Shown one piece after another: positions 7,728 to 40,728 of a stretch of 41,289 nt of DNA. This DNA is from Escherichia phage vB_EcoM_ECOO78, in sequence record KY705409; one strand, given 5' to 3'. The first letter of the stretch is position 1. Each line of letters starts with the position of its first letter. Under the pieces are notes generated by a model that was not told the origin of the DNA, ran no database searches, and saw only the letters and a program-made list of their open reading frames with translations. A program made the translations under genes and the position numbers.

Positions 7728-7807
7728 AGTAATAGCCTCGTAATAACAATGCGCCCATAGTACAGGGCGCATTTCCGAAAGTAAATATCTTTTGAAATAA
7801 TCTTACT

Positions 7808-25436: not shown

Positions 25437-25508
25437 TCTTTAGGTTCCTATTATCTGTGCACACAGTGAAAATTCGCAGTGTGATGGTCGCAGGAACCGT
25501 GCGTGGCT

Positions 25509-25525
25509 TCTTCTTGGGGTTTGTC
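25509..25525 (-). repeat. Copy 1 of exact 17-bp motif (minus strand GACAAACCCCAAGAAGA), intergenic upstream of sheath gene
   Basis: Plus strand TCTTCTTGGGGTTTGTC, immediately after terminator hairpin. Confidence 0.9.
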
Positions 25526-25528
25526 CGT

Positions 25529-25550
25529 AAAAAAGCCCGCCGAAGCGGGT
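25529..25550 (-). terminator. Intrinsic terminator/attenuator (UUCG-loop hairpin plus U6)
   Basis: Minus strand acccgc-UUCG-gcgggc followed by UUUUUUA. Confidence 0.6.
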
Positions 25551-25562
25551 AAAGGCGACAAA

Positions 25563-25889
25563 TCAATAACCGATAGCGAACCAGTCAACGGTTAGTGTTG
25601 TGGTTCCTGGCACCGTTCCTTCGTTCTGGACGCCGCCAAGAATGCTTGAAAATGTGGTTAGCGTCCGACCACTGATATTGGCATATTCAAGAATAATGTT
25701 TGCGTTGTCTCTTGGCGTAGCCTGAATGCTTACCACAGCCGTAGGGAACGGTTTTGGAAACGTGACACTATGCGTGCCCTGGTACATACGTGTATCGGTT
25801 GTGCCTGCACCAGATGTAACGGTGCTGGTGAAACTACCCCACTGAATAATCAGTGCCGCCAGGTAATTCCTGGTATCCTTGCGCTGCAA
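25563..25889 (-). CDS. Hypothetical protein downstream of tail-fibre assembly gene
   Basis: 108 aa ORF, Thr/Gly-rich. Confidence 0.45.
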   Translation of the reverse strand: MQRKDTRNYLAALIIQWGSFTSTVTSGAGTTDTRMYQGTHSVTFPKPFPTAVVSIQATPRDNANIILEYANISGRTLTTFSSILGGVQNEGTVPGTTTLTVDWFAIGY

Positions 25890-25922
25890 GGTTTTTGTTA
25901 GTGATGCCCCTTAAGACTTCGC

Positions 25923-26252
25923 TCATACATTGGTTGCCTCATTCGTTGCGCCAATCAGCGCGGCCACGTCAGGGTTTGCGTTCAGGAATTCTCGCAGTTT
26001 ATCAACCGGGCTTGCCGGTTGGTTATCGTTAGCTGGCGATACGCTAATCAGTTCCCACTTTGCGCCGTTCCAGCGTGGCCATTGGTCACCTGAAAATTCA
26101 GGCGGTGCCACCTCTACGCAGCGTGCAGGAATTAGAAAAACACCAGGTTCAAGCGGTGATTCATCAGCATCTGTCTGGCCAACAAAAAGGCCAGCGACGT
26201 CATATTGATAAACTGGTTTTGTCTTCATGATTCGCCTCAAAATTTGATGCAC
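25923..26252 (-). CDS. Tail fibre assembly protein (Tfa/gpG-like chaperone)
   Basis: 109 aa; position after fibre gene; start may be the internal MKTKPVY. Confidence 0.6.
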   Translation of the reverse strand: MHQILRRIMKTKPVYQYDVAGLFVGQTDADESPLEPGVFLIPARCVEVAPPEFSGDQWPRWNGAKWELISVSPANDNQPASPVDKLREFLNANPDVAALIGATNEATNV

Positions 26253-27574
26253 GCCAGTAGAGCGATGTTTCGCGGTCTGGTTTCTGTACCGCCTGTGGAT
26301 CCAGTGCCAATTCCTTCTGGATAATTGCCGCTAGTGCCCTGGTTCCAGGCGTCAGCAATAAGGTTTGCAGCTCCGTTTGCTACAAATTCACTCCCCAATC
26401 TGTGATAGTGGCTTTTTATTTCATCGGCCTGATAGCTACCTAGTGACCGTGAAGCGTCTACACCTCTACCGTCATCATATCCTCTGATGAATTCTCCGCG
26501 CAGATCTGGCAAATTGAACGTGTTAACACCGTCACCATTGCCAAATATTGTTCCTATTACAGAAAAAAGATTTGCATAAGCCGTTCTACTGATCGCAGCC
26601 CCATTGGCTTTCAACCATCCTGTCGGTGCCGTAGAGCGTGGAAAATAAACAATTCCACCTGTCGGCATCTTTTGGTCAGTTTCCGTTTTGCTGTAAACTT
26701 CAAGGTTGCTCCGTGACTCGGATTTACTTGCAACATCTGAAAGGTTTTTACTTCTTTCCAGTGGAGCATGTGCGCTTCCTGCTGGTTCATTGTTCACAGC
26801 CTGCAAAATCGACCCATCTGGGTAAGGCTTCCCAAGTGTAAATTTCGACGAGTCAGTTGCATCAGGCTGCCACTCATCAACACCAGAACCTTGCGGCAGC
26901 CTGATGCCTTCGATATACACCGCCAGGCCGCGTGTTATGGTTGTTGTCAGCATCACTACAGTCTGGTTGGCTGCCAATGTTTGTTTTTCGGTGATGGTAT
27001 CAACCACAACGTTTGCTTGTGTAGGGTCAACCCAATGGACGTCACCGTCAGCGTTTGACTGCTTTGCAAGAACCTGCCCGGTTGTGCCACCAGGGATGAT
27101 GGTTCCTGCTGTCACGTTGTTAGAAATCCACTGCTGTGTGACAACCACAACATTTGGGTCAACTTGTAGGGTGATAGTGCTGGCGTTGCTTACCATGAAG
27201 TCAAGCCGCACAACCGTGTCAGAGTAGGCACCTTCTGTATCAACCGGCTTGTAAGTAGATGGAAGATCGCCAACAGCAAACAGAGAACCATCAGCGTCAA
27301 AAACACCAACCTCACGCATAGTAAAACCACCAACGCTGGCCGGGATAACCAATTCAGCAGTGAAGCGCAGCGGGTTATTTGCATCCTGATAAACGCGGTT
27401 GATGGTTGCGCGGAAACGTTCACGCACCAACTGCGTCTGATTTGGATTAGGCGGCGCAGCATTTCCGTTGCCGTCGCCAACTGCCATATGCGTCAACCGG
27501 ATTTGCGTTCCTGTTGATTCAGCCTGCGCAAGCTTTTGCAGACCATAGTTAGTATGAATTGTAAGAAATGGCAT
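26237..27574 (-). CDS. Tail fibre protein with C-terminal tail-collar domain
   Basis: Start MPFLTIHTNYGLQ with GAGG RBS; C-terminal FNLPDLRGEFIRGYDDGRGVD collar-like segment. Confidence 0.8.
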   Translation of the reverse strand: MPFLTIHTNYGLQKLAQAESTGTQIRLTHMAVGDGNGNAAPPNPNQTQLVRERFRATINRVYQDANNPLRFTAELVIPASVGGFTMREVGVFDADGSLFAVGDLPSTYKPVDTEGAYSDTVVRLDFMVSNASTITLQVDPNVVVVTQQWISNNVTAGTIIPGGTTGQVLAKQSNADGDVHWVDPTQANVVVDTITEKQTLAANQTVVMLTTTITRGLAVYIEGIRLPQGSGVDEWQPDATDSSKFTLGKPYPDGSILQAVNNEPAGSAHAPLERSKNLSDVASKSESRSNLEVYSKTETDQKMPTGGIVYFPRSTAPTGWLKANGAAISRTAYANLFSVIGTIFGNGDGVNTFNLPDLRGEFIRGYDDGRGVDASRSLGSYQADEIKSHYHRLGSEFVANGAANLIADAWNQGTSGNYPEGIGTGSTGGTETRPRNIALLACIKF

Positions 27575-27627
27575 TGTGTTTGGCCTCAATTTTAAAATTT
27601 GCTACCCCACCGAAGTGGGGTTGTTTG

Positions 27628-29871
27628 TTAAATCAAGCCATAAATAGCGTTATGAATATGCAGTGTACCTACTTCACCAGAAACTGCAAAGTTAACCCTT
27701 GCTTTACTTGCACCAGGCGGAACAATGTCTACGAGCGCATAGAATCCCCAAGCATTCACAGAAGGTATATTAAAAGGTATTTTCCCTTGAACGCTGTTGC
27801 CCTCTTTATCAAAGAATTCAATTGATGCCAGTGATGTCACAGCGTTCTTTGCCCAAAACCCAAGTTGAAAATAGCGGCCAGGTGAACAGTCAAGGCAGTC
27901 TTGGTAGAAATCTGCTGTCGCACCAACGGAAGGGACAGTTACGTATAGCGATCTTGAAAACATGATTGTATTTGGTACGTCAGTATCAGTACCTGCCGTA
28001 ACAACACCGCTTCCGGTTTGCATTAAACTCCAGTTTGAATAGTTTGAAAATTGTCCACTGCCATTCGACAATGAGTTTATGTAAGCACTAACAATGTTAC
28101 CTTTATCCCAATTTGCTGTTATAAAACCAGCCCTGGGATAACAACCATAAGACATTACTTTCTTACTGTTCCCACCAATAATTTGACGCGCAGCAGCACC
28201 AGCGGCAATCTCTGTTTGCTCATATAGAGGAAGCGAACAGTTTGTTAGCGAGACGACCGCATCATCATTTGCAACGATTGGTATAGCTGAATATCCAGAT
28301 GGAGTTAGCAGCGTTGAATCTTTAATACTCAATCTGGAACTGCCGCCAACCACAAATGCAACAAAACTTTGACCTGGTTGAAATTCAATGTTGCCATTTG
28401 CGTAAACAACTGTTGCGTTGTCCTCCAATATTATGTTTGGGTCAAAATATCCTGCCTTCTTCCCGGCAGGCATTGAGCAACCATTAAATATAAACTGCCC
28501 ATTTTTGAATTTTAATGGCCCGCCATTGTCTACCATCCAGCAATGATTGAAGTTAATCACTTCTCCTGAGTTCGCAGGTGAATTAAATATGAGTGTGTCA
28601 TTAAAGCTGCGTGAAATAGCGCCTTTATCGAAAATAATCCGGTAAGAGTTGTCAAGAAACTCTAATCCAGCAGAAGATATGAAACCAAAGTTACTTATCC
28701 GCAATTCAGATAGTTCACCCGTTCCCGCTCCGCCAAGCGCAATTTTTTTTGTTCCAGAAAACTGAAATGCGACCCCATCCAATATGGCGTTTGCGTTAAT
28801 TGAATCTCGGTCAGCATAATCGGTGTTTGAGTTGAAAAGCTTCAACGCATAATCACCTGGAATTCCTTCAATTTCTGTAAGTGTGCATTTGTTTGCGCCT
28901 CTTACACTTCCTTTGCTGAAATCAATTTCTATTGCGGAAGAAAACGCGCCGGAACATGGAATAAAACAATCGTATCCTGCGGAATTCACTTTATTGATGT
29001 AAACAGCAATGTCGCCGCTTCCCGTATATCCGGCGTCAAATACATTTACCTCACCAGCAAAGAAAAGTCTCCGCCATTTAACACCTACGCCGTCAAATAC
29101 TACCACGCCATCAGGCGTTTCAGTGTTTTCAACTGCAACAAATGTGCCACCACCTTTATTAGAACCGGCGATGTATGATCTGACAAGTATCTTATCGCCA
29201 ACAGATGCGCCAGAAACAGATGCTAACTGAGCTACAGAATCAACGTCACCGATTAGATTCATTCCCTTGTTTGATGCCAGGATTTGGCTAAAGGATTTAT
29301 TACCAACGCTAGTCCAGGCTCCAGGGGAAACGCCACCTGTTTCGGAAGGTGTTGAACCTTCTGTTACTACTTTCGGCATCACTCCGCCCCAGGTGTAGCA
29401 CTGACCACCAGCAATATGCCAGACAGCTTCAGAAGCGTTACTGACTGTCGCCCCCGCCTCAAAGCTACCGTTAACAAGCGTTATTCCTGCATCTGCCAGC
29501 GATCTGCGCCATTGTTCACGGCTGTTTGATTCGATGTTAGCGGACTGCGATTCTATGGATTCAGCCGCAGCCTCTGCGCGATCTGCGGCGCTGCTTGCTT
29601 CGCTAAGTTGCTGTTGAACATCGATACATTGAAACGTAACTTTAACTCCGTCAACGCTGCCTAGTGATACCTGCATGTCATAAATTCCGTCTGGCGCGTA
29701 AAACTGTATTTTACCGTCAGAACCTGCGGTGAAAGGATTGGTAAGATTAGCGCCGCTAACGGTCTTTAATCCTGTGGCTAAGGTTGATGTGCCAGACAAA
29801 AAAATTGACACTGTAGCAGATGGAATAAGGTTTCCGTTTCTGTCTTGGGCGAAGTATGTTTTCAGTTCCAC
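27628..29871 (-). CDS. Tail spike/fibre with beta-helix (pectate-lyase-like) receptor-binding or depolymerase domain
   Basis: 747 aa; conserved N-terminal anchor then long Gly/Asn/Ser-rich repetitive central region; AT-richer than flanks. Confidence 0.7.
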   Translation of the reverse strand: MELKTYFAQDRNGNLIPSATVSIFLSGTSTLATGLKTVSGANLTNPFTAGSDGKIQFYAPDGIYDMQVSLGSVDGVKVTFQCIDVQQQLSEASSAADRAEAAAESIESQSANIESNSREQWRRSLADAGITLVNGSFEAGATVSNASEAVWHIAGGQCYTWGGVMPKVVTEGSTPSETGGVSPGAWTSVGNKSFSQILASNKGMNLIGDVDSVAQLASVSGASVGDKILVRSYIAGSNKGGGTFVAVENTETPDGVVVFDGVGVKWRRLFFAGEVNVFDAGYTGSGDIAVYINKVNSAGYDCFIPCSGAFSSAIEIDFSKGSVRGANKCTLTEIEGIPGDYALKLFNSNTDYADRDSINANAILDGVAFQFSGTKKIALGGAGTGELSELRISNFGFISSAGLEFLDNSYRIIFDKGAISRSFNDTLIFNSPANSGEVINFNHCWMVDNGGPLKFKNGQFIFNGCSMPAGKKAGYFDPNIILEDNATVVYANGNIEFQPGQSFVAFVVGGSSRLSIKDSTLLTPSGYSAIPIVANDDAVVSLTNCSLPLYEQTEIAAGAAARQIIGGNSKKVMSYGCYPRAGFITANWDKGNIVSAYINSLSNGSGQFSNYSNWSLMQTGSGVVTAGTDTDVPNTIMFSRSLYVTVPSVGATADFYQDCLDCSPGRYFQLGFWAKNAVTSLASIEFFDKEGNSVQGKIPFNIPSVNAWGFYALVDIVPPGASKARVNFAVSGEVGTLHIHNAIYGLI

Positions 29872-30474
29872 TTAAGCACCTATAGATATATTTGGTTGCA
29901 CCATAACATAGTCATTCAAAGCACCAACAAATCTGGTGTAGTTCGTCAGACTAATTTCATTTCCTGTGCCACAGACAATGGCAGCAGTCGTTTTACTTTC
30001 TGACTTAACAATCAACTGCGTTTCATCCAGGTGCGAACGCAGGTTTTTGTTAGTGTCAATCACTTGTAGTATTTTTTTAAAATCTTCTTGAGTTAACGGA
30101 TATTGATTAGCAGTAATGTAAACATCAAATGTGTACGGCTGGCCAATCGGGCTTTGTTTAAACCACTCAAGGATCTGAATCTGGTAGCCCAAAGCAACAA
30201 GCTGACGCGTAACAGCCCCGATAGTGCCTTTTATGCGCTGCGAATAAACCGACTCTTTAATTACCTTGCGTTTCTGCTCGTCTGACCAGGTAGTATCCCA
30301 ATCGTCAACGCTGAACGCCCAAGCCAGCCAGGGCAGAACGCTTGATGGGCAGGTGTCAGGGTTCCAGACTTCACGCACGACAACCGGAACGTCACTAATC
30401 CTGGCTATTGTTTCAGCCAGTGCGCGTTCCTGTTCTGTTGAATTATATGGCAATAAGTCAGACATCAGTATCAC
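29872..30474 (-). CDS. Baseplate protein (P2 gpI-like)
   Basis: 200 aa; position after J. Confidence 0.7.
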   Translation of the reverse strand: MILMSDLLPYNSTEQERALAETIARISDVPVVVREVWNPDTCPSSVLPWLAWAFSVDDWDTTWSDEQKRKVIKESVYSQRIKGTIGAVTRQLVALGYQIQILEWFKQSPIGQPYTFDVYITANQYPLTQEDFKKILQVIDTNKNLRSHLDETQLIVKSESKTTAAIVCGTGNEISLTNYTRFVGALNDYVMVQPNISIGA

Positions 30475-31360
30475 CCGCCACGGTTACATTGATTGCTGTG
30501 CAATAGCTGGCCTGACCATCGCCAAGCACCAGTGATGCTGTTGGGCTGGTCAGGTTGACGTTCTGCACGCCAGGCTGATGCAATGCGTGATACAGACCAG
30601 ACAGCGTGACATCATAGCCAATGCGGCGCTGAGATTCTGCAAACGCTGTTACGGCATCAATGGCAGACTGGAGAACCACAGTGGAGTCAGGGCCAGGGAA
30701 CAGCGTTAGTTCAGCATTAATGGTGTAACTCACGATGTTTGCTGACAGCACTGTGACTTCATCGGTCATTGGCCTGATGGTTTCGCCGTTTAGGGTGTTG
30801 GCAACCGCAGTAATGGTTTCAGCAGGTGCGGTGCCGTCGCCGGTGCGTGACAGCACGTAAACGGTGACTTTTCCTGGCTCCGGGCTTATGGCCTGGATGT
30901 CTTTCACGTCAGCGTCAGCACCCAATCCGTGGAACACATAACTGCCTTCTGAACCCGCTGTTGTGTAGCCTTCCGGTGACAACTGAATACGCGCGCGGAA
31001 ATCTTCATCTGATTCCATTTCGGCAGGTGTTGGCGGCACAGTTGTGTCATCAGCAGGCGTAATCACCTGGCGCTTAACACCAACGTTCGCGCCTAACTGG
31101 TCAAGATCTGCACCAGACGCGTAAGCCAGCATAACTGCTTTGGCCGCTTCATTAACTCGCTGACGCAGCAGTAACTCCCGGTAAGCGCAGACCTCCAGGA
31201 TTTTATAAGCGGGGTCAGATTCCACCAATGCGGTGAATGTGGGGTCACGATCCTGCAAATCGGCGATCATGGCCGCCAGAATCGTTTCAAAGTCCAGCGG
31301 CACAACAACGTTTGGCGCTGGTAATTGAGATAAGTTTACAACTGTGAAGGCACCCGCCAT
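30458..31360 (-). CDS. Baseplate assembly protein J (P2 gpJ-like)
   Basis: 300 aa; position between W and I. Confidence 0.75.
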   Translation of the reverse strand: MAGAFTVVNLSQLPAPNVVVPLDFETILAAMIADLQDRDPTFTALVESDPAYKILEVCAYRELLLRQRVNEAAKAVMLAYASGADLDQLGANVGVKRQVITPADDTTVPPTPAEMESDEDFRARIQLSPEGYTTAGSEGSYVFHGLGADADVKDIQAISPEPGKVTVYVLSRTGDGTAPAETITAVANTLNGETIRPMTDEVTVLSANIVSYTINAELTLFPGPDSTVVLQSAIDAVTAFAESQRRIGYDVTLSGLYHALHQPGVQNVNLTSPTASLVLGDGQASYCTAINVTVAGDTDV

Positions 31361-31699
31361 TTATGTCACCACTATGCCGTCAATTGTTATTTGTTTGCCG
31401 TCTGGCAGGTATTCGCCGGTAATGGACAATTCCACGCGTCCTGGTTCTGCTGATGTTGCTGTCACCTGCTGCACGCTGATGCGTGGTTCCCAGGCTTCCA
31501 GTGCTTCCGCAGTTGCTGCGTACAGGTCCAGCAGCGTGCTGCGGTTCATCGGTGCATCAACCAGGTAGGGCAACCGGCTGCCGTAGTCGCGGCGCATCAC
31601 TCGCGTGCCAATTGGCGTCGTGAGTATGTCTCTTATGGATTGGCGCAGATGGTCTAAACCATCCAGCGGCGCGCCTGTGGCCGCGTTTGTTCCTTTCAT
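31361..31699 (-). CDS. Baseplate assembly protein W (gp25-like)
   Basis: 112 aa with IRDILTTPIGTRVMRRDYGSRL motif typical of gpW/gp25. Confidence 0.8.
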   Translation of the reverse strand: MKGTNAATGAPLDGLDHLRQSIRDILTTPIGTRVMRRDYGSRLPYLVDAPMNRSTLLDLYAATAEALEAWEPRISVQQVTATSAEPGRVELSITGEYLPDGKQITIDGIVVT

Positions 31700-31732
31700 G
31701 CGGGCAATGATGCCCGCATGGGTGATGGTTTA

Positions 31733-31749
31733 TCTTCTTGGGGTTTGTC
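31733..31749 (-). repeat. Copy 2 of exact 17-bp motif, intergenic between V stop and W start
   Basis: Plus strand TCTTCTTGGGGTTTGTC. Confidence 0.9.
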
Positions 31750-31752
31750 AGG

Positions 31753-32406
31753 TCACACCGGTGCGCCGGTGTTGCTGCCACCAGACTGCACGCCGCTGTG
31801 AGCATGGTTGCTGCCAATGTTTTTGCCGTTGTGTGTCAGGCTTCCGCCTTCAATCGCCACGTTACCCGTCATCGTAGCCGTTCCGCCTTCGCTTCCCATC
31901 TGGAAACTTTTGGCCACGGTCAGGTTGCCGGTGCAAAACGTGTCAGGCGTGTCCAGAGTGACGCTTGTTGATGCCGTCACGGTGGCCGTTTCAGTGTTCA
32001 CGTTGGCCTGTTTGCAGTTAATGATGACATTACCTGCACCAGCCACGGTGATGGTCAGCGTGTTGCTTGCGCTGTTGTAGTCCACCGTTGTGCCGTCAGG
32101 GTAAACGGTTGTTTCCTGGTCCGCGCTTGCCGCTGGTGCCGCGTGGTCATCCTGGAAGATTGACGGCCCAATGACTGCCTGGCCTAAGTCGCCGTAAGGC
32201 GCAAACAAAACTACCTGTTCGCCGATGACAGGCGGTGACCAGTCGCGGCGCTTCCCGGCACGGTTGGTTCCCCAGGGAAGCCAGTCAGTGGTGCAGCCAG
32301 CAACGGAAACTTTAGCACGCGCGTTGGCCAGGTCCAGTTGTTTGATGGTGCCGATGCGCACAACGTTGTTTAGCTGGCGGTTCAGTTCGCTAACTTCTGC
32401 GCTCAT
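31753..32406 (-). CDS. Baseplate spike protein V (P2 gpV-like)
   Basis: 217 aa with Gly/Thr-rich C-terminal region; precedes W. Confidence 0.75.
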   Translation of the reverse strand: MSAEVSELNRQLNNVVRIGTIKQLDLANARAKVSVAGCTTDWLPWGTNRAGKRRDWSPPVIGEQVVLFAPYGDLGQAVIGPSIFQDDHAAPAASADQETTVYPDGTTVDYNSASNTLTITVAGAGNVIINCKQANVNTETATVTASTSVTLDTPDTFCTGNLTVAKSFQMGSEGGTATMTGNVAIEGGSLTHNGKNIGSNHAHSGVQSGGSNTGAPV

Positions 32407-32975: not shown

Positions 32976-33514
32976 TTTAGATCCGCCTCAAAGGTTTTAT
33001 AAAACTGTTCTTCAAATCCTTTAAATACATCATCGTTGAGAACCTTTTCTACTTCTTTGGCTATGTCATAGCCAACGCGCTCAATAGGGTTTCTCTTTTT
33101 TCCTTTTCGAATAAATGCGCCGCCACGTAATTTGCTGGATTTTATGCCTGGTTTCGGCCCCATAAACGCTTTATCAAAGTATTTCACAGCGCCTTCACCC
33201 TGCCCAGCCACTACGCCAATTTCATCCTGCGCGGCATAAGGTAATCGGCTAATGTCAATGGGGTTATAACCAATCCATACGCCGCCAGTGGCTTCATCTT
33301 TTTTGGTCTTAAACTTCATGTTCTTTAGGCGTCTGCGGAGAACATCTGCTTTCAGTTTTGTTTCTTTCCTGATTGCTCGTCCTGCTCGCACTCGCAGCCA
33401 ACCAGCCATTCTTCTGATTGTTCGCCTCATGGCCAGGCGCACTGCCTTTTCAGTAGCGTCTAACTCATGTGTGATTACGTCCAGTTGTGTCTGGTCGATG
33501 TCGAATTTAATCAT
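32951..33514 (-). CDS. Putative virion morphogenesis / tail completion protein
   Basis: 187 aa basic protein in structural operon. Confidence 0.45.
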   Translation of the reverse strand: MIKFDIDQTQLDVITHELDATEKAVRLAMRRTIRRMAGWLRVRAGRAIRKETKLKADVLRRRLKNMKFKTKKDEATGGVWIGYNPIDISRLPYAAQDEIGVVAGQGEGAVKYFDKAFMGPKPGIKSSKLRGGAFIRKGKKRNPIERVGYDIAKEVEKVLNDDVFKGFEEQFYKTFEADLKWRMQTQK

Positions 33515-33843
33515 AAGATACCATCTTGGCGCGTCATCCTCACCACGGCAGTGCCTGTGCCATCCTGTTCCGGGGATGCCAGCACGTCGAAGGTTTCACC
33601 GGCCACAATGATTGTGTCACCACGCAGGATGCCAGCCAGGTCAGATTCCTTTGCCGTGATGCGCGGGCTGCTGGTGTCCGCTTCATACTCGCCAATTTGC
33701 GCGTTGAAGTACGGATCATCAAAGATGGCGTTAATTGTTCTGGTCCAACCTTTTTGCGAATGAATAACGGCGGGAAATGCAAACCCGCCGTTGGTGTCAA
33801 GGTCAAAAAAGTCGTCCAGGTTTTCCCAGGACGGCGCGGGCAT
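33511..33843 (-). CDS. Putative head-tail connector/adaptor protein
   Basis: 110 aa ORF downstream of capsid genes. Confidence 0.45.
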   Translation of the reverse strand: MPAPSWENLDDFFDLDTNGGFAFPAVIHSQKGWTRTINAIFDDPYFNAQIGEYEADTSSPRITAKESDLAGILRGDTIIVAGETFDVLASPEQDGTGTAVVRMTRQDGIL

Positions 33844-34199
33844 TACTGTGATTCCCGCTTATTGCCAACCAGCACAACGCTGCGGATTGCCGAACCGGAA
33901 CTGGCGGAAACATCCTTCACACGAACAAATTTTTTGAATCGGTCAGCATTAAACAGGATCGTGTCAGCCTTAGCTGCGGTGCCGATCTGCGCAAAAGTGG
34001 TATTGGGTACGTCAGCCCAATTGGTTGAACCGTCATCACTGTGTTGCAGGCTTACAGTGGTGGTGCCAGCAGTGCCGATGCCGTTAAGGTGAAGCAGGCA
34101 CAGGCCATGATAATCACCAACGTTGACGGCTGAACCGTTGCCGCTGGCTGTGATTGTTGCTGGTGCGGCCAGAACCGTTACAGATGTGCCGTGTTGCAT
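33843..34199 (-). CDS. Putative head-associated protein
   Basis: 118 aa Thr/Gly/Ser-rich beta-type sequence directly after capsid region. Confidence 0.4.
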   Translation of the reverse strand: MQHGTSVTVLAAPATITASGNGSAVNVGDYHGLCLLHLNGIGTAGTTTVSLQHSDDGSTNWADVPNTTFAQIGTAAKADTILFNADRFKKFVRVKDVSASSGSAIRSVVLVGNKRESQ

Positions 34200-34501
34200 T
34201 ATTCGTCACCCTCTTTGATTTCGCCTGCGGCTTCGATGGCTTCAATCAACTGCGCTTTGGTCATCTTGTCAGCGCCTTCAATTTCCATCTGCTCTGCAAT
34301 GGCGATAAGCTGATCTTTGTTCATTTTCGTGATTTCAACATCGTCATCACGCGCTGGTTGTTCGTCGTGCATCTCGGCCTTGCCGCGTGACAACAGATTT
34401 TTGGCCTCAAGCTCTGAAACCTCAACCAGTGAACCTGCTTTCATGACTTCGCCGCTGATAGCAATGGCGGAAGTCAATTTCAGTACGTAAGTACCAGGCA
34501 T
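34199..34501 (-). CDS. Hypothetical protein with tandem HeH/Rho-N-like motifs
   Basis: Start MPGTYVLKL with GGAG RBS 7 nt upstream; motifs MNKDQLIAIAEQMEI and MTKAQLIEAIEAAGE. Confidence 0.45.
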   Translation of the reverse strand: MPGTYVLKLTSAIAISGEVMKAGSLVEVSELEAKNLLSRGKAEMHDEQPARDDDVEITKMNKDQLIAIAEQMEIEGADKMTKAQLIEAIEAAGEIKEGDE

Positions 34502-34526
34502 AAACTGTCTCCTGTTTGATAAGACT

Positions 34527-34546
34527 ATGGCCGCCGAAGCGGCCAT
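34527..34546 (-). other. Perfect 8-bp stem hairpin with UUCG loop, no U-tract (attenuator or RNA-stability element after capsid gene)
   Basis: Minus strand AUGGCCGC-UUCG-GCGGCCAU between capsid stop and next RBS. Confidence 0.5.
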
Positions 34547-34554
34547 TGTTCTGG

Positions 34555-36600
34555 TTACGCGTTGCGGCCTAGGCAGAAGGATTCAACGCGGCGCACCGCA
34601 AAATCCACGTCCTGGAATACCACGATGCGCAGGCCACCGGATTTGCTCAGGCTGTACGGGTCAACAGTCATATCCAGGCCACCCCACATACCAACCACCA
34701 GGTCAGCGAAGTTGCCAAAGAACACGTCACCATCCTGCACCTGGTTGGTAACTTCGGCGCGGTAACCGTTCAGGGTGTTGCCCGGCTCCCAAATCACGCC
34801 AGCGTCAGCAACGGAAGAACCACTGGCAAACTTCGGCGTGGTTTTCGCAGCGCCACGGCCACGCGCGTTAAGCACATATGCCATGTTGTTCACGTCAGCG
34901 TTGTCAGCCGCGATTTCGGTTTCCATCTGCACCAGTTCCGCATAAGTCGGATTGGCTGCTGCGAAGTCTACCGCGTTAATGCCGGTGTAGTTCGCCAGGC
35001 CAAGCGGCTGGTTGCTGGTGCCTGTGCCGTAGTAACCAGCGTAATCAATCGCCTGCGCGATAGCTGCCACCAGGTCACCACGCACGATGGCTTCCGCATC
35101 CGGGGTGGATTGCATCAGCAGGCGGCGTGTAATGTCGGTGTATGCCGCAACAGTTTTCGGTGACAAGCCAAGCTGGCCGATGGTCGGCGTGGTTTCGGTT
35201 GCGTCATCACCTTCACCAATCCAGTAGGCAGTAGCACCGCCAGTCTGTTTTGGGATTTCGACGTTGCCAACCAGGCCGCCCATAGTACGCGCCAGGCGCA
35301 TGATGGTGGTGCGCGGGCGCAGCAGGTCGATGAACGAACCGGCCATAAAGTCAGTGCCAACCAGGTTAGAACCGGTTTGAGCGCCTGCCGGGGTGTTCGG
35401 TGCGCCACCAGCGTTGAATGCACGCAGAACATCGTCAGGGATCAGGATGCCTTTTGCACTGCGGCCATACTGCTGTTGCGCTGCGTGGCTGCATTCGATT
35501 TCAAACGCTGCGGCACGCTGTGCGGCTGCATCGTTCGGGTTAGCCAGAGCGCGAACCACGTTGAAAATGCTGTAGCGGCGGATGTCTTTGTCAGACATAC
35601 CAATCACGCTGGACGGCATTTCTGACAGCGGCTTGCTGCCTGAACGGGTGCCATCAGCCGGTTGTGCCGGGTCTTTCGGCTTGTTCAGGTGGTCCAGCAA
35701 GGAACGCTGGAAATCTTCGGCGGTGGTGCCTTCGCCAATCGCTTTCAAAGCCAGGTCACGTGCGTTGTACTTCTCGCCCATCTCAGTGATGGAACGCACG
35801 CGCGCTTTTTCAGCTTCACGGCCACGCTGTTCAGCGTTGCGCGTATCATCGCCAGCACGTTCCAGCATTTCCAGAACCTGCGTGATGTTGCCTTTTTCGT
35901 CTACCATTGCGCGCACCAGGTTACCGGCTGCGTCGCGCAGAATTTTTTCCATTCTAATGCCCTCAGATGCAATATTTGTTGGTGCTGGAACCTCTACGGT
36001 GCCCGCAGTATCGGATTTGCCGACGCGTTGTTCTTCTTGGGGTTTGTCAAACGCACGCCCAATGCCAACGCTGGTGTCAGCGGGAACGCTCACAATTGAA
36101 ATTTCGAACGGTTCCCATTCAGTGATGCGGTAGACATCCTGCCACTCGTCACGCGTTTCCTGTAGCTTGGCCGCTAACACGCGGTAGCCAACGGAAACAT
36201 GCTTGCGAATGCCGTCAACGATGTCCTGGAAAATCTCGTCAGCGCGTGCACTTCGGCCAAAGCGCACCACAGCCCGCCCCCGGCGGTCAGCGTCAATGCT
36301 GACTGATTCAACAACGCCCACCTGGTCAGTCCAATCGTGGTCAACCAGCAGCGCCCCACCGTCACGCAGACGGTCCAGGCGCACGCTTTCCGGCGAATGG
36401 TCCAGAATTTCGATACCGTACCAGCGTTCAACCTCGATTTCGGATGAAAACGCCAGTTCTACGGTGCGTTTTTCGGTGTCAAACTTGCGCACTTCCATAG
36501 TGCGCACCAGCCCGCCTTTGTTGAAATCAGGCAGCGTTTTGCTGTCTGATTTGCGGGTAAATTCGGCCCCAATGATGCTATTCAGCAGGTTTTTCTGCAT
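34555..36600 (-). CDS. Fused prohead protease, scaffold-like linker and HK97-fold major capsid protein
   Basis: 681 aa: N-terminal HK97-type prohead protease-like region, charged coiled-coil linker, C-terminal capsid-like domain; possible internal in-frame start at 35952 (GAGGG RBS). Confidence 0.75.
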   Translation of the reverse strand: MQKNLLNSIIGAEFTRKSDSKTLPDFNKGGLVRTMEVRKFDTEKRTVELAFSSEIEVERWYGIEILDHSPESVRLDRLRDGGALLVDHDWTDQVGVVESVSIDADRRGRAVVRFGRSARADEIFQDIVDGIRKHVSVGYRVLAAKLQETRDEWQDVYRITEWEPFEISIVSVPADTSVGIGRAFDKPQEEQRVGKSDTAGTVEVPAPTNIASEGIRMEKILRDAAGNLVRAMVDEKGNITQVLEMLERAGDDTRNAEQRGREAEKARVRSITEMGEKYNARDLALKAIGEGTTAEDFQRSLLDHLNKPKDPAQPADGTRSGSKPLSEMPSSVIGMSDKDIRRYSIFNVVRALANPNDAAAQRAAAFEIECSHAAQQQYGRSAKGILIPDDVLRAFNAGGAPNTPAGAQTGSNLVGTDFMAGSFIDLLRPRTTIMRLARTMGGLVGNVEIPKQTGGATAYWIGEGDDATETTPTIGQLGLSPKTVAAYTDITRRLLMQSTPDAEAIVRGDLVAAIAQAIDYAGYYGTGTSNQPLGLANYTGINAVDFAAANPTYAELVQMETEIAADNADVNNMAYVLNARGRGAAKTTPKFASGSSVADAGVIWEPGNTLNGYRAEVTNQVQDGDVFFGNFADLVVGMWGGLDMTVDPYSLSKSGGLRIVVFQDVDFAVRRVESFCLGRNA
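36032..36048 (-). repeat. Copy 3 of exact 17-bp motif, inside protease-capsid gene (encodes DKPQEE)
   Basis: Plus strand TCTTCTTGGGGTTTGTC. Confidence 0.9.
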
Positions 36601-38134
36601 TTTGCTGCCCCATTAACAGTGTTTTGTCCATGCCCATGCTTTGCATGACCAGTTTTTCCGCCATTTCTCGGCTGATACCGTGCTGCGTGTACGCCTCAAT
36701 CATGCGTGCCACGTCGCTAGCGGTTTCCTTCCAAACGGTGTCAGGGTCGCTGCCACCTTCACGGATGATGCGGCCAGGCGATTGCAGCATGTTGTTTTTT
36801 GATTTTTCAGCCGCTGCCACGTCAGATGACGGGTCAATCCAGGCCCAACGGCGTGGCTGCCATTCAATATTGCTGTAACGGTCTATGCGTTCCGGTTTCA
36901 GGCTGCGGCCCTTCACCGTGATGCGTCCAGACAGCAGGGCGCGCGGCAGCCAGGCGTCAAAAACAGGCTGGTGCAGGTTTTCGATTAGCCATTCCTGTAA
37001 TTCCTTCCAGCTTTCGCGCTCGTCAAGCGTGCCCTGGCGGATAGAACTGAAATTGACGCCTTCCAGGTCGTTGGCCAGGTTGTTGTAAGCAACACCCATG
37101 CCCGAAGCCATGCCGCGCAGCATTTGTTTGGTGAACACGGCAAATTCGCCGTTGGGGTATTGCGGTGACCAGTCTTTGACGCGTGCGCCCTGTGGCAGCA
37201 CCTGGAATTCACCCGGTTCACTGTCAATAATCAGTTCGTCATCATCTTCAAATTCAGGGCCAGCGGAATTTTCATCCCATTCAATGAACCCCATTTTGTT
37301 GGCACCGGCGCGCGCGTTGACCAGTGCGGCTTCTTCCATGCCGCCCAGGTGGCGCATACGAAACAGGCTGGTGGCCATCCAGGGCAGGCCGCGTTTCTGG
37401 CCCACCATGTCATCAAAAAAGCCGTGCAGGATTTCTTCCGCAGGCACGCGCACGAAGTCACGCCCGGACCAGCGGTAGTTTTCATCCGATTCATCAACGG
37501 TGCTGAAATAGTACGCGATAGGCCGCCCGTAGCGGTTAAATTCGATGCCCTGGCGGATGAAATTTCCGTTTGGCATCCGATCTTCAACCATGTCCACCGG
37601 GCAGCGTTGCGGGTCCAGCAGTTGCAGCGAGAAGCCCCACGGCCCTGCGTCAGCCCCGAACACCAGGCGCACGAAGAATTCACCGTCTTTGGCCACGCTG
37701 TTGACGCAGGCGGCCTGGATGGCGCGCCATGACAACTTCCCGGTCACGTCACAGTTAGTCTTTTTGCCCCATGCGTCAAACGCCAGTTCAATGGCTTCAT
37801 TCGCCAGGGTGTCCAGTTTTCCGGTGTTATCCTGGCTTTTTGCCTGCAACAGAACGCCTTTTGGCCCCACAATGTTTGTGCGGCACAGACGCAGGAACTT
37901 TTTGGCATAATCATTGTTGGCGGCCTGTTCGCGGGAACGGGCCACCAGGATGCGTTGATTTTTGGTAATGACTTCATCAGCCGTCAGCGGCTGCGTGCCC
38001 CACGCGGTGCCAAAACGGTCAACGCTGGCCCCGGTAAACATACGGGACGCCAGGCGGTTAAGCGGTAAACGCCGCGTGCGCGGCTGTTGTGCCTGTTCGG
38101 CAGGCTTATTTCTGGTAAATGGCCACAGTTTCAT
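36578..38134 (-). CDS. Portal protein (lambda gpB family)
   Basis: 518 aa; lies between terminase and protease-capsid genes; family call from memory of lambda-type portals. Confidence 0.8.
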   Translation of the reverse strand: MKLWPFTRNKPAEQAQQPRTRRLPLNRLASRMFTGASVDRFGTAWGTQPLTADEVITKNQRILVARSREQAANNDYAKKFLRLCRTNIVGPKGVLLQAKSQDNTGKLDTLANEAIELAFDAWGKKTNCDVTGKLSWRAIQAACVNSVAKDGEFFVRLVFGADAGPWGFSLQLLDPQRCPVDMVEDRMPNGNFIRQGIEFNRYGRPIAYYFSTVDESDENYRWSGRDFVRVPAEEILHGFFDDMVGQKRGLPWMATSLFRMRHLGGMEEAALVNARAGANKMGFIEWDENSAGPEFEDDDELIIDSEPGEFQVLPQGARVKDWSPQYPNGEFAVFTKQMLRGMASGMGVAYNNLANDLEGVNFSSIRQGTLDERESWKELQEWLIENLHQPVFDAWLPRALLSGRITVKGRSLKPERIDRYSNIEWQPRRWAWIDPSSDVAAAEKSKNNMLQSPGRIIREGGSDPDTVWKETASDVARMIEAYTQHGISREMAEKLVMQSMGMDKTLLMGQQNAEKPAE

Positions 38135-38673
38135 CAGCGAAGGCTCACCCGAACTTTACGCCCGAACGGGTTTTTGCCGCACTGCGCCTGCTTTTCGCGT
38201 GCTACTTCCAGGCGGTACAAGTCGCGCAGTTTCAGCAAATCCGCAATCGGGGTGCGATATAACTCGCGGTTATTGATGCGGTAGCGTTCCTGGTCCATCG
38301 TCGCGCGCTTCTCTATGACCGCTTCAATGGCTTCCAGGGTGCGTTGCGCGTGAGTTTTCCCGTTAAATCCATCACTGGCGCTGGCCAGGTCTGGCAGGAT
38401 GGTAATCTGGCCGTTTCCGGCCTCCATAACGTCATCGCCTTTGGTCGCGCGCAGCGAATACCAGTAATCGCCTGCTGGCCACGTTGCAGTGACGCCAGCG
38501 GCTGCGCGGATGACGTGATCGTTACCATCAGCGACGGCGTTGATGTTAATTGACTGCGGGCCGCGCAGCAGTAGCTGAACGGCCCATTCAGTTGCAGGAT
38601 AGCCGGGAAGCGTCAGGCGCGTCTCAAATGTCAATCCAGCAGTAATTTTCTGCGGTACTTGGCAGTTTTTCAC
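38134..38673 (-). CDS. Hypothetical protein between terminase and portal (head-tail joining / packaging accessory candidate)
   Basis: 179 aa ORF in the lambda W-equivalent position. Confidence 0.4.
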   Translation of the reverse strand: MKNCQVPQKITAGLTFETRLTLPGYPATEWAVQLLLRGPQSININAVADGNDHVIRAAAGVTATWPAGDYWYSLRATKGDDVMEAGNGQITILPDLASASDGFNGKTHAQRTLEAIEAVIEKRATMDQERYRINNRELYRTPIADLLKLRDLYRLEVAREKQAQCGKNPFGRKVRVSLR

Positions 38674-38679
38674 TATTTA

Positions 38680-40728
38680 TCACCAGCGGCTAACCCATCC
38701 ACCGCCACGGCGTTTGGATGCCCTGGCGGAACGTTTAATGGGCTTAGTCTCTGTGACTTGCTGTTTTTCTTCTTCTTGGGGTTTGTCATTGGCCGGTTGC
38801 GGCACTTCCACCGGTTTCACGATGGGTTTGACGTTCGGCAGCCGCTTGCGCCGTTCCGGTGGCGCGTTGTCGTTCGCTACGCCAAACTTTTCAGCCAGGC
38901 GGCGGAATGACGGCTGCATGATTTTAAGCGCGGCCAGCGCATAGTTGCGGCAGTCCAGTGCTTCGTTGCGCGCCCGGTCGGGTTTCTTCCACTCGCGGAT
39001 TGGCTGGCCCTTCACGTAACGCATGGTCAGCTTTTCAGCGGTGATTTGCTTAAACCATTCTTCATCGCGGTCAGCAGGGAAGTGGCAGAAACCTGGCCCC
39101 GGTGCCGTCTTGTTTAAACGCCGTGCGGTAATCAGCTTGGCTTCATCGGTGCCCACCAGGAATAAATCCACTTTGCGGGCATCCTTCCCGGATTGCTTGC
39201 GCTGCGGCTTCTCCACGATAGGACGGCCCCAACCGCCCACGCCTTTGATGGCAAACAGGCGGCGGCCTGTGCGCCCTCTGGCGTAGTCATAGGCGGCCTG
39301 CGTGTAACCGCTGGTGCCCCCGGTATCGAGACAGGCGGCCATAATCGGCATGATGGCCCCGGTTTCGTGCTGGTAGGTTTCCGCCAGCAGGTCATCCAGG
39401 GCATCCCAGGGGTCAGGCGTCAGCGGGTCACCCCACAGAACGTGGTAACCCAATGACCAGGATTCTTCACCCACGCCCCAGGCCACCACTTCGCATTCCA
39501 GGCGGTCAACCTGCATGTCTATGCCTGCGGTGATATACAGCCCACCAGCAGGCACCTGCGCTGCGTATTCCTCGCGGCGCGCCATCAGTGAATCCGGGTC
39601 AACCTTGTCGCCTTCTTCTTCCCAGGTGCGCGCCAGGCTGACGTTGGTGAAGGTTTGCAGGTCGTCAGTTTTCAGCTTGTCCAGGTAGTCACGCACGATG
39701 GCCGGAACTTTGCGGAATGTGCTGTATAGTTCGTTCAGGTGGTAGCTGGCGTGCCCTTCAAACGGCCTGGACGCCTTCCAGCCTGCGCCCTTTTCTTCGG
39801 CCTGGCGGATAGCCGCTATCCGTTCGCCGTCATTCCACTGCGCGCCGCACGATGGGCAGTACAGGTGCGCGGTTTCCGGCCTCTGTTCGTCGATGGCCGC
39901 CAGCGTTTCCGCGTCAGTTTCGCGCTGGCCATCCCATTTGACGTATTCCCATTCAAGCGTAACGTGATCGTCACAGTGCGGGCAGCAAACGAAGAAATGC
40001 CGCTGGTCGCCCATTTCATATGCTTTTTCGATGTAGGATTCCCCTTTAAGGGTAGGGGTGCTGATTTCCAGCAAAAACCGCTGGTCACCGAAGGTGGCAG
40101 AACGCTGCCACAGCAGGCCAACCGGGTGCCCTTCGCTGGTTCGTTCATATCCGTCTACCTCGTCACATACAATCAGCGGCGCTGAACGCCCGCGCATGGT
40201 CTTTGGCGAACCGGACCAGGCGAACATCAGGAACCCGCCAGGGTATGATTTCATTTTCTGGTTGTTCACCCCGTCGCGGCCACGCGGTTTGGCAATAGCG
40301 TTGTTTACCGGCGCGCATTCTTCCGCCAGCGGGTTGAATTTCGTTTCCAGCCAGGTGCGCAAGTCATCCTGGCTTGGCTGCATCATCATCTGGCTGCGCG
40401 GTTCAGCGGCTACGCTGTACGCCTGCACGCACAGTGCCAGCATGGTTTTGCCCACCTGCGCGCCCCACATCAGCGTTACGCGGTAGCAATCAGGGTCAAC
40501 CAGCATGTCCATTGGTTCGCGTTGGTATGGCGCGTTATCCAGGCGCAGCGGTCCTGGCACGGCGTTGCCAGACGGAATGCGGATGTTTGCCTGCGCCCAC
40601 TCTGACGGCTTCATGTCTGGCGGCGGCAACAATTGTTGTTGTGCGCGCCGGATGGCCTGGTCAATGCCTTCGATATTGGCAAACGGGTTATTCTTCGCTG
40701 TCACCGTCGCCCCCTTCGTCATAGCCAT
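38680..40728 (-). CDS. Terminase large subunit (lambda gpA family)
   Basis: 682 aa; Walker A-like GAQVGKT, Walker B LIVCDEVD; C-terminal basic tail. Confidence 0.85.
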   Translation of the reverse strand: MAMTKGATVTAKNNPFANIEGIDQAIRRAQQQLLPPPDMKPSEWAQANIRIPSGNAVPGPLRLDNAPYQREPMDMLVDPDCYRVTLMWGAQVGKTMLALCVQAYSVAAEPRSQMMMQPSQDDLRTWLETKFNPLAEECAPVNNAIAKPRGRDGVNNQKMKSYPGGFLMFAWSGSPKTMRGRSAPLIVCDEVDGYERTSEGHPVGLLWQRSATFGDQRFLLEISTPTLKGESYIEKAYEMGDQRHFFVCCPHCDDHVTLEWEYVKWDGQRETDAETLAAIDEQRPETAHLYCPSCGAQWNDGERIAAIRQAEEKGAGWKASRPFEGHASYHLNELYSTFRKVPAIVRDYLDKLKTDDLQTFTNVSLARTWEEEGDKVDPDSLMARREEYAAQVPAGGLYITAGIDMQVDRLECEVVAWGVGEESWSLGYHVLWGDPLTPDPWDALDDLLAETYQHETGAIMPIMAACLDTGGTSGYTQAAYDYARGRTGRRLFAIKGVGGWGRPIVEKPQRKQSGKDARKVDLFLVGTDEAKLITARRLNKTAPGPGFCHFPADRDEEWFKQITAEKLTMRYVKGQPIREWKKPDRARNEALDCRNYALAALKIMQPSFRRLAEKFGVANDNAPPERRKRLPNVKPIVKPVEVPQPANDKPQEEEKQQVTETKPIKRSARASKRRGGGWVSRW
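38771..38787 (-). repeat. Copy 4 of exact 17-bp motif, inside 3' end of terminase large-subunit gene (encodes DKPQEEE)
   Basis: Plus strand TCTTCTTGGGGTTTGTC. Confidence 0.9.

What the first reader, a model, noticed from the sequence alone, without database searches (positions are those of the whole stretch)
25509..38787. Exact 17-bp motif repeated four times, same orientation, across the late operon
Plus-strand TCTTCTTGGGGTTTGTC (late-mRNA sense GACAAACCCCAAGAAGA) occurs exactly at 25509-25525, 31733-31749, 36032-36048 and 38771-38787; three copies extend to 18-19 identical nt. Four same-strand copies of a 17-mer in 41 kb are not expected by chance. Two copies are intergenic (just upstream of sheath and of baseplate W genes); two are inside coding sequence where they force the peptide DKPQEE (terminase C-terminus; protease/capsid junction), so selection appears to act on the nucleotide sequence. 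The RNA form ends in (AAG)n, an A-R-N repeat, preceded by a C-rich block. Candidate roles: binding site for a phage or host protein on late DNA or RNA, sRNA/Hfq target, RNA processing or anti-termination site, or recombination hotspot.
Basis: seen in the sequence. Interest (0 to 1): 0.85.

Follow-up and report, generated by a model that had tools for sequence, protein, structure and literature searches.

The report
Activator box of phage late promoters
The repeated 17-mer is the upstream recognition box of five late-gene promoters of a small E. coli myophage. This is an ordinary kind of element, but the same box also sits in front of defence-like genes in unrelated prophages.

Summary
In detail: four exact same-strand copies, plus a fifth copy with two mismatches at 1896-1912. 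No shuffle reached that count.

The window is a whole Jilinvirus genome, about 98% identical to Escherichia phage ep3. In 11 related phage genomes from at least six genera, a genome-specific 18-bp box occurs 3-5 times at the same five places:
- the 3' end of the late-activator gene, upstream of holin
- the terminase-large C-terminus
- the protease/scaffold-capsid linker
- the V-W intergenic gap
- after a terminator, upstream of sheath

Every box is followed after exactly 18 nt by a -10-like hexamer nAnnnT. Boxes are near-identical within a genome and differ between genomes.

The motif is therefore the activator box (about -48 to -31) of sigma-70-dependent late promoters that lack a -35. The likely binder is the phage's 144-aa HTH protein, which is only remotely Mor-like.

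Readings as an RNA, Hfq or recombination element are not supported. This is a new member of a known kind.

Unexpectedly, the same box-N18-(-10) module, sometimes with two specificity types in tandem, precedes Rha/Ant/KilA-N and AbiC-like genes in lambdoid and F116-like prophages. No activator homologue was found there. These may be decoy promoters fired by the invading phage.

The parts
1895..1912 (-). Box of the lysis promoter (GACAAACCCCACAAAGAC, 3 mismatches over 18 nt). It lies inside the last 24 codons of the activator gene. The -10 AACCAT is at 1871-1876, the predicted start is near 1864, and the holin ATG is at 1832.
   Evidence: syntenic copy in 9 of the 10 relatives, with only a degenerate one in Arya
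38770..38787 (-). Box of the promoter inside the terminase-large C-terminus. The -10 GAGACT is at 38746-38751 and the predicted start is near 38739. It feeds the head-tail joining gene (GTG at 38673), portal and capsid.
36031..36048 (-). Box of the promoter inside the protease-scaffold-capsid fusion gene. The -10 GATACT is at 36007-36012 and the predicted start is near 36000.
35950..35952 (-). In-frame internal ATG (Met217) with a GAGGG Shine-Dalgarno sequence, 96 nt downstream of the capsid-internal box. This is a conserved nested start of a scaffold-capsid product.
   Evidence: SD + Met + M-x-K-I-L-R-D-A-x-G-N-L-V-R-A conserved in 9 genomes
31732..31749 (-). Box of the baseplate-W promoter. 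The -10 CATCAT is at 31707-31712, shifted by 1 nt. The predicted start falls at 31699-31700, which is the A of the W start codon, so the mRNA would be leaderless.
31697..31720 (-). Palindrome CATGCGGGCA-tcat-TGCCCGCATG. The -10 hexamer sits in the loop and the W start codon in the 3' arm.
   Evidence: equivalent hairpins with different stem sequences in MQ-4, PPpW-3, Mano and phiRSP
25508..25525 (-). Box of the sheath promoter. The -10 GACCAT is at 25484-25489, the predicted start is near 25477, and the sheath ATG is at 25436.
25536..25549 (-). Intrinsic terminator (CCCGCTTCGGCGGG + T6) ending the tail-fibre unit, 10 nt upstream of the sheath box. The terminator-box pair is conserved in relatives.
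1838..2272 (-). Gene for the 144-aa HTH 'late transcriptional activator', the proposed box-binding protein. Its tail (residues 121-144) is predicted disordered and is encoded by the lysis promoter.

Best explanation
The 17-mer is the core of an 18-bp upstream box occupying about -48 to -31 of five late promoters. Each promoter has a weak sigma-70-type -10 hexamer (nAnnnT) exactly 18 bp downstream of the box and no -35 hexamer.

Inferred mechanism: host RNA polymerase cannot use these promoters alone. The phage's 144-aa HTH protein is made from the gene that ends in the first of these promoters. It binds the box and recruits or repositions the polymerase. This switches on five units: lysis, head-tail joining protein/portal/capsid, a nested scaffold-capsid message, baseplate W and tail fibres (probably from a leaderless mRNA), and sheath/tube/tail.

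Three boxes lie inside coding sequence. There they impose D-K-P-(Q/H)-(E/K)-(E/D) on unstructured protein segments.

Shown: the architecture, the synteny and the concerted evolution of the box. Inferred: the transcription start sites and the identity of the binding protein.
For: 1. Five same-strand copies, all in gene sense; none expected by chance.

2. In 11 genomes (window, ep3, ECO1230-10, MQ-4, Arya, PPpW-3, Persinger, Mano, phiRSP, FoX5, Alexa) a box occurs 3-5 times at the same five syntenic places. It is near-identical within a genome and different between genomes. Examples are Arya GACACCCCGCACGAAGAA x4 and phiRSP GAAATCCCACCAATGGAA x5. That is concerted change, as expected for sites read by one co-evolving factor.

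3. Across 39 sites from 8 lineages the information content has two blocks. The first is the box, with G1, A4, C7, C8 and G16 invariant. The second is positions 38-42, with A38 in 37/39 and T42 in 37/39. The 18-nt spacer between them is uninformative, and A is enriched at position 49.

4. Predicted starts make biological sense:
- 32-66-nt leaders for holin, sheath and the head-tail joining gene
- the W ATG at +1, with no Shine-Dalgarno sequence
- a conserved SD plus in-frame Met downstream of the capsid-internal site

5. The sheath site directly follows a conserved terminator.

6. The 17-kb late region has no excess of consensus sigma-70 promoters: 9 found against 12.1 expected.

7. An activator gene is present in all 11 genomes, immediately upstream of the lysis genes, with the first box in its 3' end. 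Among IMG/VR stretches, multi-copy boxes co-occur with this gene.

8. Nine of 42 family members hit Pfam Mor (best E 8e-6). Phage Mu has the same layout: a C-activated late promoter immediately downstream of gene C, and late promoters with a -10 but no -35 (PMC2582627).
Against: - There are no transcript-end data; the start sites are inferred from the -10 position only.
- The box has no T on the sense strand, so it cannot be the dyad that Mor/C dimers bind.
- The same box-N18-(-10) module occurs in prophages with no activator homologue found. A different binder is therefore not excluded.
- Window and Arya share the recognition-helix sequence SERTVKRHC, yet their boxes differ at 4 positions.
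- The genes between the capsid terminator (about 34531) and V have no box of their own.
Confidence: 0.78

Rival explanations
1. The elements are late promoters, but the box is read by something other than the 144-aa protein. Candidates are a host factor, another phage protein such as the 77-aa HTH protein at 7539-7772, or the 144-aa protein acting as a sigma-region-4 surrogate rather than a Mor/C-type dimeric activator.
For: - Orphan boxes with the same spacing and -10 occur in lambdoid and F116-like prophages with no activator homologue found.
- The protein's best Pfam hits are Sigma70_r4_2 and GerE HTH.
- The 3' end of the box (GGAAC in Pseudomonas, Achromobacter, Ralstonia and Xanthomonas phages) occupies the -35 slot, with a 17-nt spacer to the -10.
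- The box is asymmetric.
Against: - Boxes differ between phages of closely related hosts (E. coli type against the Enterobacter and Klebsiella aerogenes types).
- Two different box types occur in tandem in a single genome (Kosakonia L154, Pseudomonas L104). A single host factor does not explain this easily.
- Multi-copy boxes always come with the activator gene.
Confidence: 0.15
2. The motif acts in RNA on read-through late transcripts, for example as a processing site, an antitermination (nut/put-like) site, or an Hfq/sRNA or Rho-loading site.
For: - The sequence is C/A-rich and G-poor, like rut sites.
- It lies in the transcribed sense strand of long operons.
Against: - The fixed 18-nt link to a -10 hexamer in 37/39 sites has no RNA rationale.
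- The sheath copy lies downstream of a terminator.
- No Rfam family matches in the window.
- Relatives lose the AAG repeat.
- No conserved RNA structure surrounds the box.
Confidence: 0.03
3. The motif is a recombination or module-boundary sequence (Chi-like, or a mosaic joint) shared among phages.
For: The same 17-mer lies at the edges of moron-like cassettes in many prophages.
Against: - Three copies are inside essential genes at conserved codons.
- The box changes in concert within each genome while the flanks stay syntenic.
- The strict spacing to the -10 would be unexplained.
Confidence: 0.02
4. The repeat reflects a repeated peptide (DKPQEE) or is a chance or compositional repeat.
For: Three copies are in frame and encode similar acidic, proline-containing linkers.
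Against: - Two copies are intergenic.
- The peptide changes in parallel in three unrelated proteins and in the intergenic copies.
- The activator tail is predicted disordered and is absent from three homologues.
- Shuffles give none.
Confidence: 0.01

Closest known systems
Phage Mu late promoters (Plys, PI, PP, Pmom) activated by protein C, and Pm activated by Mor (Mor/C family)
   Same: - A small phage HTH activator gene sits just upstream of the lysis genes, with the first late promoter immediately downstream of it (in the window, overlapping its 3' end).
- There are several late promoters with a -10 and no -35.
- An activator site of 16-19 bp overlaps the -35 region (PMC2582627).
- Promoters are embedded in upstream coding sequence.
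- The cores resemble each other weakly: Pmom GCCCCAATAAC against ACCCCAAGAAG here.
   Different: - Mu sites are imperfect dyads centred at -43.5 and bound by dimers. This box is asymmetric (no T on one strand) and centred near -39.5.
- The protein is only remotely Mor-like, if at all.
- There are five promoters, one of which gives a probable leaderless mRNA.
P2/186 late promoters activated by Ogr/B, and their cross-activation in satellite P4 (Psid, PLL, delta)
   Same: - The tail module is P2-like, with a promoter before the sheath gene as with P2 PF.
- Late promoters are activator-dependent and lack a -35.
- P4 shows that an unrelated element can carry promoters answering to another phage's late activator, which parallels the orphan boxes.
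   Different: - No Ogr/Delta zinc-finger protein was found in the 10 window ORFs scanned.
- There is no TGT-N12-ACA dyad at -55 (from my own knowledge of P2).
- The box lies about 15 bp closer to the -10.
T4 middle promoters (MotA box with AsiA, 'sigma appropriation')
   Same: A phage-specific box replaces the -35 element in front of a sigma-70 -10. The protein's HTH resembles sigma region 4.
   Different: The MotA box is 9 bp and centred at -30, and needs the co-factor AsiA. No MotA or AsiA homologue is annotated in the 98%-identical ep3 genome; this was not tested further.
Phage-triggered suicide or abortive systems
   Same: Examples are the engineered phi31 promoter-LlaIR cassette in Lactococcus and AbiD1 activation by a phage protein (PMC2661086, listed). 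Both use an invading phage's own regulator to switch on a harmful host or prophage gene. This matches the reading of the orphan boxes upstream of AbiC-like, Rha, Ant and KilA-N genes.
   Different: The lactococcal promoter cassette is engineered, and AbiD1 is controlled at translation. Natural decoy late promoters of this kind are not described in the papers I searched.

Membership tests
Mor/C-dependent phage late promoters | The phage encodes a Mor/C-family activator (Pfam PF08765; Mor fold 1RR7, C 9L0X) | tested here: inconclusive
   - The window protein has no Mor hit even at E<=10.
- The PPpW-3 homologue scores E 5.6e-4, below the cut-off.
- 9 of 42 homologues hit at E<=0.01, best 8e-6.
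- hhalign to Mor gives E 0.003, probability 10%.
- Foldseek finds nothing.
Mor/C-dependent phage late promoters | The promoter has a recognisable -10 and lacks a -35 hexamer | tested here: met
   nAnnnT lies 18 nt after the box in 37/39 sites. No TTGACA-like hexamer is present, and no consensus promoter is called at these sites.
Mor/C-dependent phage late promoters | The activator site overlaps the -35 region, about -52 to -34 | tested here: met
   The box spans -48 to -31 when numbered from the -10 hexamer. This rests on an inferred, not a mapped, start site.
Mor/C-dependent phage late promoters | The site is an imperfect dyad bound by a dimer | tested here: not met
   The sense strand of the box contains no T (GACAAACCCCAAGAAGAA), so a dyad is impossible. 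The same holds in Mano, PPpW-3 and MQ-4. Dimerisation of the protein is not testable here.
Mor/C-dependent phage late promoters | Several late promoters head the lysis, head and tail units, and the activator gene precedes the lysis genes | tested here: met
   Five syntenic sites across 11 genomes. The Mu layout was checked.
P2-type Ogr/Delta-dependent late promoters | An Ogr/Delta zinc-finger activator and a TGT-N12-ACA dyad near -55 | tested here: not met
   No Ogr_Delta domain in the 10 window ORFs scanned; only MQ-4 has one annotated. The sequences upstream of the boxes are not conserved.
Promoters of a phage-encoded single-subunit RNA polymerase (T7-like) | A phage RNAP gene, and a continuous ~20-bp promoter running through +1 | tested here: not met
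   No RNAP gene among the ORFs or in the ep3 annotation. The element is bipartite, with an uninformative 18-nt spacer and a sigma-70-like -10.

The most novel reading that the evidence does not exclude
Unrelated temperate phages carry decoy copies of these late promoters, sometimes two specificity types in tandem. The carriers are lambdoid prophages of Enterobacterales and F116/H66-like prophages of Pseudomonas aeruginosa. The decoys sit in front of Rha/antirepressor/KilA-N and AbiC-like genes.

On this reading, the late activator of an invading Iiscvirinae-type phage itself switches on a prophage defence or escape gene. That would be a natural transcriptional tripwire.

In the window phage, the box may also be read by an asymmetric, sigma-region-4-like mode rather than the Mor/C dimer mode.
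Probability: 0.3. Interest if true: 0.8.

Novelty: new member of a known kind. Interest (0 to 1): 0.5.

Why it matters
- It gives a complete, testable map of late transcription for a poorly studied group of small myophages (Jilinvirus/Iiscvirinae and relatives). Some of these are used in phage therapy and biocontrol work.
- The map comprises five promoters, their probable activator, a leaderless baseplate gene and a nested scaffold-capsid gene.
- It explains why short acidic peptides are conserved in three unrelated proteins: the DNA is a promoter.
- The specificity series of boxes and activators is a ready-made set of orthogonal phage-inducible promoters.
- If the orphan boxes in other prophages respond to the invader's activator, they would show a simple way for prophages to sense a specific superinfecting phage.

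Tried and rejected
- **Sequence and profile searches of the activator against solved structures** gave only generic HTH hits.
- **Fold searches** gave no specific match. Foldseek against PDB and BFVD returned only the Mano family member. afdb50 was unavailable.
- **An apparent similarity to ACCCCAAAATAAC upstream of Mu Plys** was rejected. With the correct Plys -10 (TAGACT) that sequence is not the C site.
- **The Ogr/Delta hypothesis** was rejected.
- **The RNA-family hypothesis:** Rfam at gathering thresholds found nothing in the window, nor in the leaders of the orphan cassettes. It found only isrJ and tRNAs elsewhere.
- **A weak extra box-like site at 33067** (4 mismatches) is not conserved in ep3 and was treated as chance.
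- **Literature searches** for the motif strings and for promoter descriptions in this phage group found nothing.
- **Some hits of the degenerate genome scan** were set aside as unrelated mobile DNA. These were identical sequences in Haemophilus, Citrobacter, Raoultella, Kluyvera and Serratia.
- **Covariation between activator and box** was not pursued, because it is confounded by phylogeny.


Full report
**Observation.** The plus-strand 17-mer TCTTCTTGGGGTTTGTC occurs exactly at the four stated positions. A fifth same-strand copy with two mismatches lies at 1896-1912. Dinucleotide-preserving shuffles give a mean of 0.10 matches at up to three mismatches, and none reaches five. All neighbouring genes are on the minus strand, so the sense form is (T)GACAAACCCCAAGAAGA(A). 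Pfam identifies the large terminase, a protease-capsid fusion, baseplate V and W, and the sheath. The coding copies give DKPQEE in the terminase (codons 648-653) and in the capsid fusion (codons 185-190). The fifth copy gives DKPHKD in codons 121-126 of a 144-aa HTH protein. All three are in the same frame.

**What the window is.** It is a complete genome of about 41 kb, 98% identical to Escherichia phage vB_EcoM-ep3 (Jilinvirus, Iiscvirinae). More distant relatives infect Enterobacter, Serratia, Klebsiella, Pseudomonas, Achromobacter, Ralstonia, Xanthomonas and Acinetobacter. RefSeq annotators call the 144-aa protein a 'late transcriptional activator', and the Mano record cites an HHpred match to Mu Mor. 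Its gene lies directly upstream of the holin. The fifth motif copy is in its last 24 codons, 80 nt before the holin ATG.

**Comparative test.** I read ten related genomes.
- ep3 and ECO1230-10 keep the same box at the same five places.
- Arya, at 80% DNA identity, has a different sequence, GACACCCCGCACGAAGAA. It is identical at four of the five syntenic places; the copy in the activator gene is only a degenerate match.
- Mano, PPpW-3, Persinger, MQ-4, phiRSP, FoX5 and Alexa each have their own version, repeated 3-5 times at those places.
- KA2-1 has yet another variant.

Change between genomes combined with identity within a genome is the signature of sites read by one co-evolving factor. It excludes a peptide-level explanation, because intergenic and coding copies change together.

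**Architecture.** In every genome the box is followed, after exactly 18 nt, by a hexamer of the form nAnnnT:
- window: GAGACT, GATACT, GACCAT, AACCAT, and CATCAT shifted by one
- phiRSP: GACAAT five times
- Mano: CAGAAT, GAAAAT twice, GACAAT, AACAAT

Over 39 sites from eight lineages, G1, A4, C7, C8 and G16 of the box are invariant. A38 and T42 are present in 37 of 39 sites. The spacer carries almost no information, and A is enriched at position 49. Numbered from the hexamer as -12 to -7, the box spans -48 to -31. There is no -35 hexamer. A consensus scan finds no excess of sigma-70 promoters in the 17-kb late region, 9 against 12.1 expected.

**The predicted start sites are sensible.**
- The sheath box follows a strong intrinsic terminator by 10 nt, and this pairing is conserved.
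- Leaders of 32, 41 and 66 nt precede the holin, sheath and head-tail joining genes.
- The W promoter places +1 on the A of the W start codon, and W has no Shine-Dalgarno sequence. In Mano the spacing is the ideal 6 nt, and the annotators found no ribosome-binding site.
- A palindrome puts the -10 in a loop and the start codon in the 3' arm. It recurs with different stem sequences in five lineages. It would occlude the start codon only in read-through transcripts.
- The capsid-internal promoter is followed in nine genomes by an SD, an in-frame Met and a conserved M-x-K-I-L-R-D-A-x-G-N-L-V-R-A segment. The linker before it is variable. This indicates a nested scaffold-capsid product that lacks the protease domain.

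**The proposed binder.**
- The 144-aa protein has 167 detectable homologues.
- Its AlphaFold model is confident (mean pLDDT 83.7) up to residue 120. The tail encoded by the box and the -10 is disordered.
- That tail carries the family-wide 'P-Q-E-E ... A-N-D-N' pattern and is missing from three homologues. This fits a DNA-level constraint.
- The stronger Pfam hits are to sigma-70 region 4 and LuxR/GerE HTH domains.

**Comparison with Mu.** In Mu, C binds a 16-bp imperfect dyad centred at -43.5 in four late promoters that have a -10 but no -35 (PMC2582627). I recovered TTATGCCCCAATAA at -50 to -37 of Pmom, and the Plys -10 TAGACT. The layout matches: activator gene, then a late promoter ahead of the lysis genes, with several promoters embedded in upstream genes. 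The site itself differs, being asymmetric and about 4 bp closer to the -10. I therefore file this as working like a Mor/C regulon, without asserting family membership. No paper in the library describes these promoters. The BASEL paper says the group is not well characterised.

**Unexpected extension: orphan boxes in enterobacterial prophages.** The exact window-type 17-mer occurs once each in 74 IMG/VR contigs, none of them multi-copy. Most are lambdoid-like prophages of 45-51 kb.
- In 66 of the 74, nAnnnT follows at the same 18-nt distance.
- The module is often preceded by a terminator. Its -10 is often followed at once by another terminator hairpin, whose 5' arm would contain the predicted start.
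- A conserved leader of about 200 nt then precedes Rha, Rha+ANT or KilA-N genes.
- Examples are Klebsiella phage 2b LV-2017 (box at 33545) and an E. coli PCP06021 prophage, where the box lies between the lysis genes and a Rha gene.
- A profile of the activator family finds no homologue in the complete 2b LV-2017 genome, nor in any orphan stretch.
- The same cassettes occur with other box types: Arya-type in L088, GACAACCCGCACGAAGA in 30 contigs, and GACAACCCCCAAGAAGA in Erwinia, Enterobacter and Mixta.
- Kosakonia cowanii, L050, L053 and L084 carry two types in tandem.

**Orphan boxes in Pseudomonas.** In P. aeruginosa F116/H66-like prophages, a Persinger-type box and a second type, GAAAAAGCCCAAGAGGAA, stand in tandem. 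Each has its own N18 and -10. In one contig they precede a gene matching putAbiC (Pfam E 5.9e-16) and AbiP (PADLOC E 7.5e-13). The second type is the multi-copy box of a real 43-kb relative that encodes the activator.

**Reading of the orphan boxes.** Two readings fit.
- These prophages carry decoy late promoters that the invader's activator fires.
- An unidentified shared factor reads the box.

Tandem sites of different type in one genome argue against a single host factor. Only experiments can decide, and this lowers somewhat my confidence that the 144-aa protein is the binder.

**Verdict.** The finding is real. It is best explained as the activator box of five late promoters, a new member of a well-known kind of element. 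The RNA, Hfq, antitermination and recombination ideas are not supported. Interest is moderate for the promoters themselves and is raised by the orphan boxes in front of defence-like prophage genes.

Noticed in passing
L013-L086, L087:33545-33586, L117:2503-2544, L088:4826-4867 (IMG/VR contigs, Klebsiella phage 2b LV-2017, E. coli PCP06021 prophage): Single 'orphan' copies of the window-type or Arya-type box occur with the same N18 and -10. They lie upstream of Rha, ANT and KilA-N genes in lambdoid-like prophages in which no homologue of the 144-aa activator was found.
   Followed up: partly
L154:5074-5195 (Kosakonia cowanii); L104:211-295 and L099:4573-4660 (P. aeruginosa F116/H66-like prophages): Two box-N18-(-10) modules of different specificity type stand in tandem. 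In L104 they precede a putAbiC/AbiP-like abortive-infection gene.
   Followed up: partly
window 31697-31720 (- strand): Palindrome CATGCGGGCA-tcat-TGCCCGCATG has the W promoter's -10 in its loop and the W start codon in its 3' arm. The W ATG coincides with the predicted +1, so the mRNA would be leaderless. Equivalent hairpins with other stem sequences occur in MQ-4, PPpW-3, Mano and phiRSP.
   Followed up: partly
window 35950-35952 (- strand) and the syntenic sites in 8 relatives: A conserved SD plus in-frame Met217 lies inside the 681-aa protease-scaffold-capsid fusion, just downstream of the internal promoter. This is probably a nested gene for a protease-less scaffold-capsid protein.
   Followed up: partly
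window 2300-2660: The intergenic region upstream of the activator gene, after a terminator, holds 13 copies of GTCACC/GGTGAC in both orientations. That is 21% of all copies in 0.9% of the genome, and it looks like an operator or iteron cluster for the middle promoter or an origin. ECO1230-10 has different repeats (AAAAGATAGTCCCA x3-4, L002 28526-28759) at the same place.
   Followed up: no
orphan modules, e.g. L087:33581-33615, L026, L013, L031: The -10 of many orphan modules is followed within 2-3 nt by a terminator hairpin (GCCTCGC-N4-GCGGGGC-T6). The predicted start lies inside the 5' arm. The terminator would therefore stop read-through from upstream but not the module's own transcripts.
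   Followed up: no
orphan cassettes, about 200 nt between the box and the Rha/KilA-N start (e.g. L026, L013, L031, L034, L117:2560-2718): A conserved, apparently structured leader (…CGCACGCGCA…CTGTGCGACAGGCT…) is shared by cassettes with different genes. It matches no Rfam family at gathering thresholds.
   Followed up: partly
window 34527-34546: A terminator-like hairpin lies just after the capsid gene. The head-completion and tail-completion genes between it and V (about 34546-31753) have no box of their own, so they presumably depend on read-through.
   Followed up: no
L123, L131, L137, L177, L189, L196 and L136, L164, L195 (genome contigs): Two box-like sequences are identical across distant genera (Haemophilus, Citrobacter, Raoultella, Enterobacter; and Kluyvera, Serratia). 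They probably belong to unrelated mobile DNA picked up by the degenerate pattern.
   Followed up: no
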